This document shows positions 15,101 through 18,003 of a DNA stretch of 20,000 bases, one piece after another. The stretch comes from Catajapyx aquilonaris. Taxonomy: Eukaryota. Below the pieces are notes generated by a model. It was given only the letters and a program-made list of their open reading frames with translations. It was not told the origin of the DNA and did not search any database. The stretch covers positions 56,640-76,639 of the forward strand of contig KZ538377.1 in assembly GCA_000934665.2 (NCBI GenBank). The letters are read 5' to 3'. The position numbers and the translations under genes were made by a program. The number at the start of each line of letters is the position of its first letter. Positions within the stretch are counted from its first letter, which is position 1.

Positions 15101-18003
15101 TTCCGTTACGACCTCGGAAACGGCCCCGTGATCCTCCGGTCTCCGCAACGAGTCCGGCTGCGACACTTCCACCGAGTGGTGGCTAAACGGTACCAGAGGG
15201 ACGGGATGCTGAAGTTGGACGACGGAGAGGACGTGGCTGGACAGTCCCAGGGCTCCCTGAAGGCTCTGGACCTGGGCGAGAGCGCCTTTGTCGGGTACGT
15301 GCCCACGGCACACCCGAAAGTATACGACAACATCGGCACGGGCAACGGATTGGTCGGGTGCATCCGGAAGCTGAAGGTCGGACGGAGGGTGGTGGATCTG
15401 ACCTCTCCTCCGTCACTCCCGGTGTCCCCTCCTCCTTCCTCCTCTTCCCCTTTTCTGATCGAAGCCTCTCCAACCCCATCCATCTTTTCTACTTCGCCCC
15501 AACCCAACAGCCTCATCCTCCGAGCCGAAGGACTGGGCGAGTGCGGGGACAACCCATGTGCCAGCGTGCCATGCAAGCACCAAGGAACCTGCGTGCCTGT
15601 CGACCAGCACAGCTACCAGTGTGCCTGCGCACCTGGATTTACAGGTAAGACACATGTGCACTTCGTTATAGACTTTTTCTCATTTAAAAAAAAGTGTTAT
15701 AGGACGCCTCTGTCCGTCTGTCAGTCAGTGGACAGGTATCAGGGCCTAAACCGCAGGAGATGGCGACAAACGGTTTTCGGATTCGGATTCAGTGGACCCT
15801 AAATAGGTTTCATGGTCAACTTCCGGTGACCAGCCACTTCTGGTTTTCCGGATTCACTCTATCCTCCAACATGACTTAGAAATTATTTACCTATGATTAC
15901 TTGGCAACGGGAAGTGAGACTGACAACATTCTACGTCATTGTTGTCCAATTTGAATTTCCTTGGCAATGAGAAAAAGTCTACTCGAATCACGCTCGTGTG
16001 ATTTGCCCATATCTTTGAGTATACCATGGAACATGTTTTAGGTGAGCTGTGTGAGACTGCGTTAGACCCCTGCCTTTCTGACCCCTGCGCCCAAGGAGCC
16101 ACCTGCGCCCCACTGCCCCAGGGCGGATTCGTATGCAAATGCCCTCCGGGTCGCACAGGTCGACACTGCCAGGAGGTGGACACGGAGCTGACCGAGGTGG
16201 CCGTGGCCGCCTTCACCGGAACCTCCTACCTGGAGCTCCCCAGACTGGAAGGGGTCGGGAAGGCCTTTTCTCTGGAGCTGTGGTTCCTGGCCCACGAGCC
16301 TGATGGTCTCCTCCTGTTCGACGGACAGGAAGGACCCAGAGGAGACTTCATCGCGCTGTCTCTCGAAGGTGGCCGCCTTCACTTCAGGTACGACTTGGGG
16401 AGCGGTCCTGCCAACATATCGTCTCCTGAAGAAGTGAGAATGGGCTGGTGGCACGCGGCAAAGGTCAGCCGGGTCGAACGGGAGGGCAGTCTTCAGCTGG
16501 ACGGAGGCAGGATCGTGACTGGGTCGTCTCAGCCTCCTCTGACCGAGCTGAACCTGGAGCTGCCCCTCTTCCTGGGAGGGGTGCGGCCCGAGCTGGCCCT
16601 GCCCCTGGCTCTGCCCCAGGGTACGGCCCGTGGGCTGGAGGGAGCCATCCAGAAGATCATGGTCAACGGGGAGGTAGTTGGGGACCTCATGTCCAGGGCC
16701 ACGGCCTCTCATCGGGTCCAGGTATTTCGGGGGCCTCCATGTGGACCCACCTCGCCTTGCAAGCATGGCGGTGCCTGCCAGCCACACCTCAACGACTTTG
16801 TCTGCAAATGTCCACTACACTTCACTGGAAGGCTCTGTGAGAAACGTAAGAACATATTAATGCAACAATGCAACATGATTCAGTTCAATCACACATCAAT
16901 GTGTTGGCAGGCATGGAAGAATCAGACTTGCAACGACCAGTGTTGTTCACCGGTCAGACCTTCCTGAGATATCCCAACCGCATCAATAAAATGTGAGTAT
17001 GACCACTCTTTAACATTCTGACTAACAAACTAACTGACTAACCCACTTTGCACTGTAATTAGTGCTAACATCACTAACCTGAGTCTGACCGACTGGTACG
17101 CTTTGGAAGATGACGAGGAGGAGTATGACGAAGAGTACGAAGGAGAGGATGCTTATTTTGAGGAGTTTGAGGAAGAGGGAATGGTGGAAGGGATGGAGGA
17201 GGAAGAAAGGGTTAGAGGGGAGGATGAGGAAAACATGGGCATTGTGATAGAAATGGAAGATGAAGAAGACAGGTCAGCACACTAACATTTACTGTAGTGA
17301 ACAGGGTCAAAGCGCCTGTCATTTGCTCTCCAGGGCCATTGCAATTGTAATTTATTAATCTGCCTTCGTATTACTTGACTAGTCGTCGTGGACAAAAACG
17401 GAATCGTCTGGAGCTGCTGTTCCGCACAAGAGAAGCCAACGGGCTTCTAATCTGGATGAACCGAGGCACCACTCTCAGGGGCGACTACTTTGCAGTGGCG
17501 CTAGTCGACGGCTTTGTAGAGTTTTCATACAATTTGGGCACGCAGCGGAGCTTCTTTGTCCTCAAATCTAAGGTAACCCAGCCGGTGTTAATAGTGCCCA
17601 CACGTACTAATTGTCCCCAAATTCCAGGTGCGAGCAGACAATGGTCAGTGGCACAGCTTGGTAGTCCATCGCAAGAAGCGACTCGGAATCCTCCAGGTGG
17701 ACAAGGAGACGCCTGTGAAAGGGGTGTCTGAACAGGGAGCAACAGCCCTCAACACAGATGGCCAACTATGGATAGGTTCGTGCTCATCACATTGTTGTAG
17801 TTGCGATTGTCACAATATTGTAAAACATTGCAGGAGGAGCTCCTACGTTGCCGTCAGGGCTACCAGCGAGTTACTACTTAGGCTTCAAAGGCTGTTTAGA
17901 CCAGGTACTGGTGGACAAGAGGAAGCTACACCTTGTGATGCATGGCGAGAATCAAATCACGCAGTTCTGTCCCGAGAGCGAGGACGGAAGGGAAACGGAC
18001 TAA
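2915..18003 (+). CDS. Agrn: Agrin, 5'-partial multi-exon gene: join(2915..3127,7312..>7352[gap],8033..8147,10877..11095,12667..12960,13099..13272,13331..13603,13660..13803,13862..14104,14164..14472,14541..14705,14764..14941,15091..15644,16042..16845,16911..16992,[17063..17272 optional],17383..17572,17628..17775,17834..18003)
   Basis: All junctions are GT-AG with matching phases, except at the gap. The order of multiple Kazal/FS, FGCCPDG motif, 2 laminin-EGF, Kazal, then EGF/LG1/EGF/EGF/LG2/EGF/LG3 is diagnostic of agrin. Stretches such as [42 protein letters not shown] and GATALNTDGQLWIGG closely resemble vertebrate agrin as I recall it. Confidence 0.96.
3494..3775. mobile_element. Possible degenerate CAC-terminus MITE with internal TCAACCAA/TTGGTTGA repeats
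   Basis: 3' end TTTTTTTCAGTG, imperfect 5' end CACTCGCAAAAAG; multiple inverted TTGGTTG motifs. Confidence 0.4.
4402..4710. mobile_element. MITE (hAT-like termini) with internal subrepeats related to the 33-bp minisatellite
   Basis: TIRs TAGCGACGGGAAAA / TTTTCCCATCACTA (12/14, both mismatches C/T at CpG); no target-site duplication (TSD) seen. Confidence 0.65.
6578..6818. mobile_element. Possible MITE with ~23-bp imperfect TIRs
   Basis: GTGGCCAAGTTTAACTCTCATGCT vs AGCATGAGAGTTACCTTTGCCCC; 13-bp perfect core. Confidence 0.45.
7312..7352 (+). CDS. Agrn: Agrin exon, 3'-truncated by assembly gap (NGCENKQCDFYAVC...)
   Basis: Acceptor tttatttacag|, phase 1 matching the previous exon; FOLN-type C-x4-C-x5-C start; ends at N7353. 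Confidence 0.85.
7353..7353. other. Assembly gap (N) next to a poly-C run, interrupting an agrin exon
   Basis: Coding sequence stops abruptly at the n. Confidence 0.9.
8033..8147 (+). CDS. Agrn: Agrin exon: C-terminal half of a Kazal domain (NRAPVCGTDGTTYKNECDLRVAACKKEQFIVVASRGDC)
   Basis: ttccag| acceptor, |gtgagt donor; classic PVCGxDGxTYxNEC motif; absent from the ORF track. Confidence 0.93.
9447..9692. mobile_element. MITE with 31-bp TIRs and 4-bp TSD (AACT)
   Basis: GAAGAGCACAGGGGAAAAGGGGGGAATGTCA vs TGACATTCCCCCTTTTTCCCCTGTGCTCTTC (1 mismatch); AACT at 9443-9446 and 9693-9696. Confidence 0.85.
9898..10117. mobile_element. hAT-like MITE with GCACTCCA subrepeats and internal hairpin
   Basis: Ends CAGGGGTCGA / TCGACCCCTA; inverted 20-mers at 9961-9980 and 10064-10083; 13-bp perfect stem at 10044-10075. 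Confidence 0.6.
10877..11095 (+). CDS. Agrn: Agrin exon: follistatin/Kazal domain (DLCQHVKCKFGARC...YGECKEGFAAGI)
   Basis: ttccag| acceptor, |gtgagt donor, phase 1-1. Confidence 0.93.
12556..12590 (+). repeat. Interstitial (TTAGG)7 arthropod telomere-type repeat (two variant units)
   Basis: ttagg ttagg atagg ttagg ttagg ttagg ttaga. Confidence 0.9.
12667..12960 (+). CDS. Agrn: Agrin exon: Thr/Pro linker plus Kazal domain (TATTPTAITRPPPHPHLCEDIICEYGAVC...PICASDLRLYTSECAMRMEACQRQIELRPRPLELCE)
   Basis: CAGCAG acceptor at 12664-12669, upstream TACTAAC, weak donor AG|GTCTCT, phase 1-1; Kazal Cys pattern. Confidence 0.85.
13099..13272 (+). CDS. Agrn: Agrin exon: Lustrin/WR1-like cysteine repeat (PCNGEPP...DCG...DCPTGSYCH...ARCC)
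   Basis: gcgcag| acceptor, |gtaagt donor, phase 1-1; C..G.P..C..CPxGxxC..CC pattern. Confidence 0.88.
13331..13603 (+). CDS. Agrn: Agrin exon: FGCCPDG motif plus laminin-EGF 1
   Basis: ttcag| acceptor, |gtaagt donor; [39 protein letters not shown]. Confidence 0.95.
13660..13803 (+). CDS. Agrn: Agrin exon: laminin-EGF 2 ([32 protein letters not shown]...)
   Basis: tttcag| acceptor, |gtaagt donor, phase 1-1. Confidence 0.95.
13862..14104 (+). CDS. Agrn: Agrin exon: last follistatin/Kazal domain
   Basis: tgcag| acceptor, |gtcagt donor; [20 protein letters not shown]. Confidence 0.94.
14164..14472 (+). CDS. Agrn: Agrin exon: Ser/Thr/Pro linker plus EB-like module (LGDHCISDFECATPHSQCMSGHCVCADGF...DC)
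   Basis: tttcag| acceptor, |gtaaga donor, phase 1-1. Confidence 0.9.
14541..14705 (+). CDS. Agrn: Agrin exon: EGF-like 1 (NACASQPCQGGGSC...FTCSCPPGRTGWLCE)
   Basis: ttgcag| acceptor, AG|gtgatg donor, phase 1-1. Confidence 0.92.
14764..14941 (+). CDS. Agrn: Agrin exon: laminin G1, N-terminal part (IPAFNGRAFVEL...DGILLYDQQKPDGTGDFVSLAIVNG)
   Basis: TACTAAC at 14742, ttgcag| acceptor, |gtaagc donor, phase 1-2. Confidence 0.94.
15091..15644 (+). CDS. Agrn: Agrin exon: LG1 C-terminal part with Ser/Pro insert, plus EGF-like 2
   Basis: tttcag| acceptor (phase 2), HVEFRYDLGNG...GCIRKL, |gtaaga donor. Confidence 0.93.
16042..16845 (+). CDS. Agrn: Agrin exon: EGF-like 3, laminin G2 and EGF-like 4
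   Basis: ttttag| acceptor, |gtaaga donor; DGLLLFDGQ..GDFIALSL..FRYDLGSG..LNLELPLFLGG. Confidence 0.95.
16911..16992 (+). CDS. Agrn: Agrin exon: start of LG3 (RMEESDLQRPVLFTGQTFLRYPNRINK)
   Basis: ggcag| acceptor, |gtgagt donor, phase 1-2; matches the FDGRTFVEYLN strand of agrin LG3. Confidence 0.92.
17021..17286 (+). promoter_or_regulatory. Cluster of ACTAAC motifs (branch point and/or STAR/QKI/How binding sites)
   Basis: ACTAAC at 17021, 17029, 17037, 17073 and 17281; GCTAAC at 17064. Confidence 0.6.
17063..17272 (+). CDS. Agrn: Putative alternative cassette exon: 70-aa acidic insert at the LG3 z/B site
   Basis: taattag| acceptor, AG|gtcagc donor; 210 nt, phase 2-2, stop-free in the agrin frame; flanking introns 70 and 110 nt. 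Confidence 0.78.
17383..17572 (+). CDS. Agrn: Agrin exon: LG3 (RRGQKRNRLELLFRTREANGLLIW...GDYFAVALVDGFVEFSYNLG)
   Basis: gactag| acceptor (phase 2), AAG|gtaacc donor. Confidence 0.93.
17628..17775 (+). CDS. Agrn: Agrin exon: LG3 (VRADNGQWHSLVVHRKKRLGILQVD...GATALNTDGQLWI)
   Basis: ttccag| acceptor, G|gttcgt donor. Confidence 0.94.
17834..18003 (+). CDS. Agrn: Agrin terminal coding exon (GGAPTLPSGLPASYYLGFKGCLDQVLVD...FCPESEDGRETD*)
   Basis: ttgcag| acceptor; LG C-terminal GFxGC motif and final Cys; TAA at 18001-18003. Confidence 0.94.

What the first reader, a model, noticed from the sequence alone, without database searches (positions are those of the whole stretch)
17063..17272. Hyper-acidic 70-aa cassette exon at the agrin z/B splice site of an invertebrate
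Seen: a 210-nt phase 2-2 segment bounded by AG and GT, open in the agrin frame, between FTGQTFLRYPNRINK and RRGQKRNRLELLFRT. It encodes ANITNLSLTDWYALEDDEEEYDEEYEGEDAYFEEF...EDEED: 33 D/E of 70 residues, two N-glycosylation sequons (NIT, NLS), and Tyr residues in acidic context. Skipping it keeps the frame (NKI-RRGQ). Established: in vertebrate agrin the neuron-specific z8/z11/z19 inserts, which switch on LRP4-MuSK signalling, sit at the equivalent place (FDGRTFVEYLNAVTES^EKALQSNHFELSLRT). Inference: this lineage uses the same loop as an isoform switch with completely different chemistry. A polyanionic, possibly tyrosine-sulfated or Ca2+-binding, heparin-mimic insert could mask the adjacent basic patch (KIRRGQKRNR) or change LG3 binding to its receptors. 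I cannot say whether it is already annotated.
Basis: partly seen in the sequence, partly recalled or inferred. Interest (0 to 1): 0.9.

Follow-up and report, generated by a model that had tools for sequence, protein, structure and literature searches.

The report
Acidic exon in arthropod agrin LG3
The 210-base segment is a real exon of an arthropod agrin gene that puts a long, very acidic, probably disordered loop at the spot where chordate agrin carries its small neuron-specific Z inserts; many crustaceans and insects have a matching exon.

Summary
Window 17063-17272 is bounded by AG and GT, is phase 2-2 and is open in the agrin frame. It encodes 69 full codons plus two split codons, with 33 D/E, 4 Tyr and 2 N-x-S/T sequons.

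It is a real exon. A spliced contig of one public run joins 17272 to 17383. Fourteen of 29 arthropod and mollusc agrin models examined carry a 42-131 residue acidic insert at the same residue position. These come from mayflies, locusts, beetles, mantis shrimp, lobster, prawn and one unnamed protein. The inserts start with N-glycosylation sequons and are rich in Tyr.

The site matches the chordate B/z site to the residue: the window's RRGQ aligns with vertebrate EKAL.

In the mayfly Neocloeon triangulifer, two RefSeq isoforms differ by this 53-residue insert and one other residue, so a cassette is already annotated in a relative. Skipping was not observed in the window's own species.

The papers I read call Z exons vertebrate- or chordate-specific, and none examined arthropod introns. 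Four searches found no description of this insert.

Its function is inferred only: a disordered polyanionic "acid box" between two basic flanks, next to the LG3 Ca2+ site.

Verdict: a new variant of a known kind, of moderate to high interest.

The parts
16042..16845 (+). Single exon encoding EGF, LG2 and EGF. It has no intron at the vertebrate A/y position.
   Evidence: Pfam finds Laminin_G_1 (7e-25) and EGF. Spliced-contig joints 15644^16042 and 16845^16911 are, and the boundaries were read.
16911..16992 (+). First LG3 exon (strand A). It ends in phase 2 with ...PNRINK, which contains the constitutive N-x-I motif.
   Evidence: Translation. Joint 16845^16911. It aligns without gaps to vertebrate-type ...NAV(T/I)(K/E)S.
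16993..17062 (+). 70-nt intron before the cassette. It has three ACTAAC branchpoint-like motifs 22-38 nt before the acceptor.
   Evidence: Removal of this intron was not directly observed in RNA.
17063..17272 (+). Acidic exon of 210 nt, phase 2-2. It starts with two N-glycosylation sequons and continues as a Tyr-bearing polyacidic tract. With its split codons it has net charge -31 over 71 residues.
   Evidence: The last 49-51 nt are joined to 17383 in a spliced contig. Homologous inserts occur in 13 other arthropod proteins. It falls on the disordered side of the charge-hydropathy plot.
17273..17382 (+). 110-nt intron after the cassette, with a weak donor (GTCAGC).
   Evidence: Removed in contig record 4 of run X1: the joint is listed as 17270->17381 with 'cut +2', which equals 17272^17383.
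17383..17572 (+). LG3 exon that starts with the basic stretch RRGQKRNR. It corresponds to vertebrate EKALQSNH... and contains the Ca2+-ligand Asp.
   Evidence: phmmer alignment to human agrin 8s9p_A 1912-1961 and to chick LG3 structures. Pfam Laminin_G_1.
17628..17775 (+). LG3 exon containing ...ALNTDG..., the second half of the Ca2+ site.
   Evidence: Aligns to human agrin 1972-2016. Joints 17572^17628 and 17775^17834 are.
17834..18003 (+). Last LG3 exon, with the stop codon TAA at 18001-18003.
   Evidence: Sequence. Covered by the same spliced contig, which continues into the 3' UTR.

Best explanation
Window 17063-17272 is a genuine coding exon of an arthropod, probably hexapod, agrin gene.

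It inserts about 70 residues into the loop between the first two strands of LG3. The insert begins with two N-glycosylation sequons and continues as a polyacidic tract with four Tyr in acidic context. The insertion point is the residue position where chordate agrin carries its Z (B/z) micro-exons.

It is the local member of an old pancrustacean exon. Matching inserts occur at the same point in malacostracan, mayfly, locust and beetle agrin models.

Shown: the exon's donor is spliced to the next exon in RNA-derived contigs, and one mayfly has annotated isoforms with and without the insert.

Inferred:
- In this species too it is a cassette (about 0.55) rather than a constitutive exon.
- The insert is an intrinsically disordered, possibly tyrosine-sulfated 'acid box'.
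- The insert lies between two basic flanks (net +3 and +4) and next to the LG3 Ca2+ site. From there it would fold back electrostatically and lower LG3 binding to anionic glycans (heparan-sulfate-like or dystroglycan-type) or to receptors. Inclusion versus skipping would then be a charge switch (mechanism about 0.3).
For: Anatomy:
- AG/GT bounds, phase 2-2 and the open frame.
- Three ACTAAC motifs 22-38 nt before the acceptor.
- Flanking introns of 70 and 110 nt resemble the gene's other short introns of 55-65 nt.

RNA:
- Run X1 gives contigs with six GT..AG joints across this gene.
- One of them, a contig of 898 nt with mean word depth 15.3, carries the last 49 nt of the segment joined to 17383. 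It continues through the next two introns into the 3' UTR.

Position:
- The downstream exon aligns to human agrin LG3 from residue 1912 and to the chick LG3 structures.
- The alignment across the junction to vertebrate-type sequences has no gaps, with KIRRGQ opposite (K/E)SEKAL.
- The published alignment places the z8 insert between S and EKAL (PMC2874008, supplement 9).
- The mayfly insert lies between the stretches that match human 1872-1892 and 1909 onwards.

Relatives:
- 14 of the 29 named or unnamed agrin models examined have linkers of 85-166 residues, against 31-60 residues in the other 15.
- In the table (the window plus 13 homologs), 14 of 14 have at least one N-x-S/T sequon, net charge runs from -7 to -45, and 13 of 14 have Tyr with at least 2 acidic residues within +/-3.
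- The window's NITNLS start matches NKTNLT in Oratosquilla.

Alternative use:
- Neocloeon triangulifer isoforms X2 (1921 aa) and X3 (1869 aa) are identical at 1868 of 1922 aligned positions. The 54 gap positions are the 53-residue insert and one other residue.

Context for the mechanism:
- The flanks are basic and the cassette lies on the disordered side of the charge-hydropathy plot.
- The Ca2+ ligands listed for human LG3 are D1940, L1957, Q2007 and D2009, described as close to the z loop (PMC6966886 passages). They correspond to D, L, A and N in the window.
Against: - The acceptor junction 16992^17063 was not seen, and neither was a skipping junction 16992^17383. Only one run was available, and its library type is not on record.
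- The short flanking introns fit intron-defined, constitutive splicing.
- Gene models of relatives are predictions. An insert that is absent from a model may be a lineage loss or a missed exon, and an insert that is present may in principle be an over-prediction. P0012 has a 76-residue non-acidic linker that looks like read-through.
- Openness alone is only a 1.3-2.3% event.
- No binding, sulfation or glycosylation data exist.
- The basic stretch is in the A-B loop. The B-C loop is where basic patches that bind alpha-dystroglycan have been mapped in other LG domains (PMC6450144 passages).
- YCAY motifs are not enriched around the exon.
Confidence: 0.6

Rival explanations
1. The exon is constitutive. 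It is always included in this species, so the acidic loop is a fixed feature of LG3 and not a switch.
For: - The only junction seen at this site is the inclusion one, 17272^17383.
- The flanking introns of 70 and 110 nt are as short as the gene's constitutive introns.
- There are three strong branchpoint-like motifs before the acceptor.
- Many relatives' single gene models include the insert.
Against: - A mayfly has annotated isoforms with and without the insert.
- The donor GTCAGC is weaker than the neighbouring donors.
- The Tribolium and Apis sequences in the published alignment lack the insert, while three other beetle models have it.
- One run assembled as contigs cannot show absence of the skipped form.
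Confidence: 0.35
2. The insert adds a function and does not mask one. It would be a docking module that depends on sulfotyrosine or on Ca2+. Candidate partners are a cationic partner, Ca2+ in bulk, or a receptor. The basic flanks would be incidental.
For: - Tyr in acidic context is conserved in 13 of 14 inserts, and sequons in 14 of 14. This is more specific than charge alone.
- Chordate Z inserts at the same site work by creating a binding site for LRP4 (PMC6966886 and PMC12445529 passages).
Against: - The sequence beyond the N-terminal sequons and the composition is poorly conserved, and length varies from 42 to 131 residues. That fits a charge-based role better than a defined epitope.
- The cassette contains no N-x-I/V/F motif.
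Confidence: 0.3
3. The segment is not an exon. It would be purine-rich, low-complexity intronic DNA that happens to be open and bounded by AG and GT.
For: - The region is open in several frames and on both strands.
- A comparable segment arises in 1.3-2.3% of shuffles.
- Pfam finds nothing in it.
- Two word-index protein searches with it or its neighbour found nothing.
Against: - Its 3' end is joined to the next exon at exactly the predicted donor, in a contig that also lacks the next two introns.
- 13 other arthropod proteins carry a like insert at the same residue position, with the same sequon-first layout.
Confidence: 0.02

Closest known systems
Chordate agrin Z (B/z) micro-exons: z8/z11/z19 in vertebrates, Z6/Z5 in Ciona
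   Same: - They use the same gene and the same loop of LG3.
- The insertion point is the same residue position, between ...S and EKAL/RRGQ.
- They lie next to the LG3 Ca2+ site.
- In at least one arthropod the insert is annotated as optional.
   Different: - The arthropod insert is 42-131 residues, against 5-19.
- It is polyacidic with N-glycan sequons and Tyr, and the window's cassette has no N-x-I/V/F LRP4-binding motif.
- There is no sequence similarity.
- No YCAY cluster was seen.
- Tissue specificity and the receptor are unknown.
- The papers read call Z exons vertebrate- or chordate-specific.
Agrin A/y site: the KSRK insert in LG2
   Same: It is an alternatively spliced, charge-changing insert in an agrin LG domain beside a putative Ca2+ site. 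It alters heparin and alpha-dystroglycan binding (PMC6450144 passages).
   Different: - It has the opposite charge, is 4 residues long and lies in LG2.
- In the window LG2 is a single exon with no intron at that place.
Neurexin LNS-domain splice inserts such as SS4 (recalled, not tested here)
   Same: They are optional inserts in loops at the Ca2+-binding rim of an LG/LNS domain, and they gate ligand binding.
   Different: They belong to a different gene family and are not polyacidic. The comparison rests on recall only.
Acid-box autoinhibition, as described for FGF receptors (recalled, not tested here)
   Same: A disordered acidic stretch, which can be alternatively spliced, is thought to compete with heparan sulfate for a nearby basic surface within the same molecule.
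   Different: The protein and domain context are unrelated. This is an analogy for the proposed mechanism only.

Membership tests
Agrin (orthologue or arthropod agrin-like) | Multi-domain layout: several Kazal/follistatin domains, laminin-EGF, then EGF and three LG domains | tested here: met
   Pfam on 12 exon translations found Kazal_2 in 4, EGF_laminin in 1, and Laminin_G_1 plus EGF for LG1, LG2 and LG3. The window holds only the 3' part of the gene.
Agrin (orthologue or arthropod agrin-like) | LG3 is most similar to agrin LG3 among proteins of known structure | tested here: met
   The best PDB matches of two LG3 exons are human agrin 8s9p_A, in its LG3 stretch, and chick and rat agrin LG3.
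Agrin (orthologue or arthropod agrin-like) | Groups with named agrin sequences in a tree | tested here: met
   Quick ML tree of 38 rows. The window falls inside a 17-row set of insect agrin-like proteins (SH-aLRT 96), and its nearest row is Neocloeon at 53% identity. The careful search did not finish.
Agrin (orthologue or arthropod agrin-like) | N-terminal NtA or transmembrane start | not testable with these tools
   It would lie upstream of the window, and no genome is held for this window.
Chordate-type Z (B/z) exon | Lies in the intron between the exon ending ...N-x-I/V... and the exon that starts at EKALQSNH or its equivalent | tested here: met
   The intron phase in chordates was not checked.
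Chordate-type Z (B/z) exon | Micro-exon of 5-19 codons | tested here: not met
   The segment is 210 nt, 69 full codons plus two split codons.
Chordate-type Z (B/z) exon | Encodes the N-x-I/V(F) motif that binds LRP4 | tested here: not met
   The three Asn in P0001 are followed by I-T, L-S and M-G. An N-R-I motif lies in the constitutive exon before the cassette.
Chordate-type Z (B/z) exon | Alternative, tissue-specific inclusion driven by intronic YCAY clusters | tested here: inconclusive
   The inclusion junction was seen but no skipping junction. YCAY density is 1.8-2.9 per 100 nt in the flanking introns, against 1.5-5.2 in three neighbouring introns. A mayfly include/skip pair is annotated.
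Tyrosine-sulfated acidic region | Tyr flanked by acidic residues in a secreted protein | tested here: met
   4 of 4 Tyr in the window insert have at least 2 D/E within +/-3. The consensus used is recalled and did not come from a tool.
Tyrosine-sulfated acidic region | Sulfate actually present on Tyr | not testable with these tools
   This needs mass spectrometry or 35S-sulfate labelling.

The most novel reading that the evidence does not exclude
The intron at the start of agrin LG3 is an ancient bilaterian hot spot for optional exons. Chordates filled it with LRP4-binding micro-exons. Pancrustaceans independently filled it, more than 400 million years ago (date recalled), with a sulfotyrosine-rich, N-glycosylated acid-box cassette. 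Including or skipping that cassette would switch agrin LG3 between an autoinhibited state and a state able to bind glycans or receptors. That would be an arthropod counterpart of Z+ and Z- agrin, possibly with tissue specificity.
Probability: 0.2. Interest if true: 0.8.

Novelty: new variant of a known kind. Interest (0 to 1): 0.62.

Why it matters
Agrin's Z-site splicing is the textbook molecular switch for building the vertebrate neuromuscular junction. The papers I read treat it as a vertebrate or chordate innovation. They checked nematode and sea urchin introns, and their Tribolium and Apis sequences lack the insert.

This analysis shows that crustaceans and insects use the same loop for a quite different and much larger acidic insert, optional in at least one annotated species.

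Almost nothing is known about what agrin does in invertebrates. This exon provides a concrete handle that is easy to test: two isoforms that differ by about 30 negative charges beside a Ca2+ site and a basic patch.

It also suggests that the A-B loop of LG3 is a general tuning point.

The limits are that the exon is already present in public gene models and that its function is untested.

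Tried and rejected
RNA:
- The look-up of sequencing runs listed one holder, X1, with no library type on record ('no RNA holder listed').
- When laid, no contig covered 17063-17221.
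- No contig joined 16992 to 17063 or 16992 to 17383.
- One contig stops one letter past 16992, and the contig carrying the cassette end starts at 17222.
- With contigs of a single run these gaps and stops prove nothing about skipping or inclusion levels, so I draw nothing from them.

Searches that gave nothing:
- The search for homologous proteins with the downstream exon and with the cassette, both in 'longer' mode, found no hit. This is weak, because the search works by word index and only proteins up to 2000 residues were searched.
- Pfam finds nothing in the cassette.

Tools that were not available:
- The genome search 'own': no genome is held.
- The listing of cluster members: switched off. 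Names came instead.
- Structure prediction: not accepting jobs. No fold of LG3 with the insert was made, so disorder rests on a charge-hydropathy calculation only.

Other points considered:
- Nova/pasilla-type YCAY clusters are not enriched.
- I considered equating the basic stretch with the B-C-loop basic patches of dystroglycan-binding LG domains. I rejected this because the stretch lies in the A-B loop (passages and my reading of the alignment).
- There is an in-frame AG at 17214-17215 inside the cassette. I considered it as an alternative acceptor, but it has no pyrimidine tract and the contig start at 17222 does not match it.

Literature:
- Four searches over the held library found no paper describing an acidic insert in arthropod agrin.
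- Subscription journals are largely outside that library.

Full report
**1. The observation**

- The exon before the segment ends at 16992 (AAT|GTGAGT), two bases into a codon.
- AG at 17061-17062 precedes the segment 17063-17272, and CAG|GTCAGC follows it.
- The next exon starts at 17383, after TAG.
- Both 17063 and 17383 are T. The split codon therefore reads ATT (Ile) whether or not the segment is included, and the segment's last two bases plus that T give Ser.
- The segment is 210 nt, phase 2-2.

The translation is the quoted acidic string. With its two split codons it is 71 residues: 33 D/E, 2 K/R, 4 Tyr and two sequons, NIT and NLS.

Joining the exons by coordinates in a script, with or without the segment, leaves only the terminal stop.

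Openness alone is weak evidence.
- The stretch is purine-rich (152 of 210 bases) and open in several frames and on both strands.
- A frame-keeping AG..GT segment of at least 210 nt appeared in 38 of 3000 whole-interval dinucleotide shuffles and in 70 of 3000 block-wise shuffles.

**2. The gene**

Pfam on exon-sized translations finds Kazal domains, a laminin-type EGF, EGF domains and three laminin-G domains on the + strand.

The LG3 exons match agrin LG3 best among solved structures: human 8s9p_A, chick 1Q56/1PZ7/1PZ8 and rat 3V64.

A library-wide HMMER search with the LG2 exon gave 5535 hits at E up to 0.001. None of the best 150 exceeded 48% identity, so no close relative is in that library.

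A quick maximum-likelihood tree of 38 rows places the window inside a 17-row set of insect agrin-like proteins (SH-aLRT 96). Its nearest row is the mayfly Neocloeon at 53% identity. The careful search did not finish.

The protein atlas's best cluster is mostly arthropod.

I therefore read the window as the 3' part of an arthropod, probably hexapod, agrin gene.

**3. RNA evidence**

One public run (X1, coded, library type not on record) holds 44% of the sampled words.

Laid on 12500-18300, its contigs show six GT..AG joints. With the tool's stated cut offsets these are:
- 14941^15091
- 15644^16042
- 16845^16911
- 17272^17383
- 17572^17628
- 17775^17834

The exon boundaries were confirmed by reading the sequence. 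Contigs that lack six introns are most simply derived from mature mRNA.

The fourth joint is the one that matters. A contig of 898 nt (mean word depth 15.3) begins with the last 49 nt of the segment. It is joined at exactly the predicted donor to the next exon, and it runs through two more spliced junctions into the 3' UTR. The segment's donor is therefore used in processed RNA.

The acceptor junction and a skipping junction were not seen. With contigs of one run, that says nothing either way.

**4. Position relative to the chordate Z site**

- The exon after the segment aligns to human agrin from Q1912, with KRNRLELLFRT opposite QSNHFELSLRT. Its first four residues, RRGQ, fall opposite EKAL.
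- Local blastp of the joined skip form against vertebrate-type hits crosses the junction without gaps.
- The published alignment of this region (PMC2874008, supplementary file 9, read) places the vertebrate 8-residue insert between ...S and EKAL.
- The mayfly isoform with the insert aligns to human agrin on both sides: 1872-1892 before and 1909 onwards after.

The insertion point is therefore the Z (B/z) site to the residue. I could not check intron phase in chordates.

**5. Relatives**

Inspecting the LG3 start of the HMMER hits showed long acidic inserts at this point in four cluster representatives. I aligned those four and used the alignment as a search profile. That returned 37 proteins at E up to 1e-10, with source names.

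Of the 29 agrin-like models I then examined, 14 have a linker of 85-166 residues from the last EGF cysteine to the first LG3 core strand.

| Group | Models with the long linker |
|---|---|
| Mayflies | Neocloeon X2, Cloeon |
| Locusts | four Schistocerca models from three apparent paralogues |
| Beetles | Agrilus, Henosepilachna, Cryptolaemus |
| Malacostracans | two Oratosquilla genes, Homarus, Macrobrachium |
| Unnamed | P0010 |

The other 15 have linkers of 31-60 residues. They are five Lepidoptera, four mollusc models, four spider models, a Neocloeon paralogue and Neocloeon X3.

In the feature table I used the window plus 13 homologs, leaving out P0077 as a near-duplicate of P0154.
- All 14 inserts have at least one N-x-S/T sequon, usually at the very start.
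- Net charge runs from -7 to -45.
- 13 of 14 have Tyr with at least two acidic neighbours.
- Length runs from 42 to 131 residues.

The window's opening NITNLS matches NKTNLT in one Oratosquilla gene, after very similar flanks.

This is a homologous, old exon shared by crustaceans and insects. It is not a local accident.

**6. Is it optional?**

Neocloeon triangulifer isoforms X2 (1921 aa) and X3 (1869 aa) are identical at 1868 of 1922 aligned positions. The 54 gap positions are this 53-residue insert and one other residue. A 53-residue difference fits a 159-nt phase 2-2 exon, though I could not see the DNA.

The Tribolium and Apis sequences in the 2010 alignment lack the insert, while three other beetle models have it.

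These points favour a cassette. They rest on gene models, and skipping is not shown in the window's species.

Short flanking introns (70 and 110 nt) and three ACTAAC motifs before the acceptor argue for efficient inclusion. The GTCAGC donor is weaker than its neighbours.

I put alternative use in this species at about 0.55.

**7. How it may work (inference)**

- The cassette lies far on the disordered side of the charge-hydropathy plot, while the rest of LG3 lies on the folded side.
- It is flanked by net +3 and +4 twelve-residue stretches.
- A review lists the human LG3 Ca2+ ligands as D1940, L1957, Q2007 and D2009 and states that this site is close to the z-insert loop (PMC6966886 passages).
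- By alignment the window has D, L, A and N at those positions. That pattern is compatible with Ca2+ binding, which is my inference from recalled LG/LNS sites.

My best guess is that the insert is a flexible polyanion, possibly tyrosine-sulfated and N-glycosylated. It would fold back on the basic flanks and the Ca2+ rim and reduce binding of anionic glycans or receptors. Inclusion versus skipping would then be a charge switch.

The main rival mechanism is that the insert creates a new binding surface, as the chordate Z inserts do for LRP4.

The cassette has no N-x-I/V/F motif. An N-R-I motif lies in the constitutive exon just before it, as noted for agrins in general in PMC12445529 (passages).

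**8. What is known**

- The C. elegans study found no alternative exon and concluded that the A/y and B/z sites are specific to vertebrates (PMC1939731 passages).
- The 2010 survey of invertebrate agrins stated that the z motif is missing in invertebrates (PMC2874008 passages and supplement 9).
- The 2025 Ciona study found Z6/Z5 exons and proposed that Z exons are a chordate innovation, after checking nematode and sea urchin introns (PMC12445529 passages).

None of the passages I read shows that arthropod introns were examined. Four full-text searches found no description of an acidic insert in arthropod agrin. The library lacks most subscription journals.

The exon is nevertheless present in public gene models, so the sequence itself is not new.

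**9. Verdict**

- It is a new variant of a known kind: alternative or insert-bearing use of the agrin Z-site loop, but with a large acidic exon that is conserved across Pancrustacea.
- Function is untested.

Noticed in passing
window 16042-16845: EGF, LG2 and EGF are encoded by one exon. There is no intron at the place of the vertebrate A/y (KSRK) site, so only the Z-site loop can take an optional exon here.
   Followed up: partly
window 16980-16988: The constitutive exon before the cassette ends with an N-R-I motif. This is the conserved N-x-I/V that PMC12445529 noted just before the Z site in all agrins and whose function is unknown.
   Followed up: no
P0157/P0159 and P0005; P0015 and P0160; P0161, P0154/P0077 and P0176: Arthropods seem to carry two or three agrin-like paralogues. 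The Neocloeon paralogue's model lacks the acidic insert, while both Oratosquilla genes have it.
   Followed up: partly
window 17222 and 16992: The spliced contig carrying the cassette end starts at 17222, inside the exon, at mean depth 15.3. The upstream contig (depth 4.7) stops one letter past 16992. The cause is unknown: it could be a branch in the assembly graph, a polymorphism in the GA-rich stretch, or a drop in coverage.
   Followed up: no
window 356-478: (AAC)n followed by (AAT)32 microsatellite in an intron.
   Followed up: no
window 2425-2844 and 4543-4633: Tandem arrays of a related 33-35 nt unit, also scored as 86-87 nt, in two introns. They look like a dispersed satellite or a fragment of a mobile element.
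   Followed up: no
window 12555-12589: (GTTAG)7 repeat. A contig of run X1 at depth 63.6 lies here with loose ends on both sides, so it is probably a repeat shared with other loci.
   Followed up: no
window 1938 and 7353: Single N bases in the assembly.
   Followed up: no
P0012, residues about 780-860: One unnamed agrin-like model has a 76-residue, non-acidic, Asn/Ser/Leu-rich linker at the same site. It looks like intron read-through in a gene prediction and is a reminder that models at this junction can be wrong.
   Followed up: no
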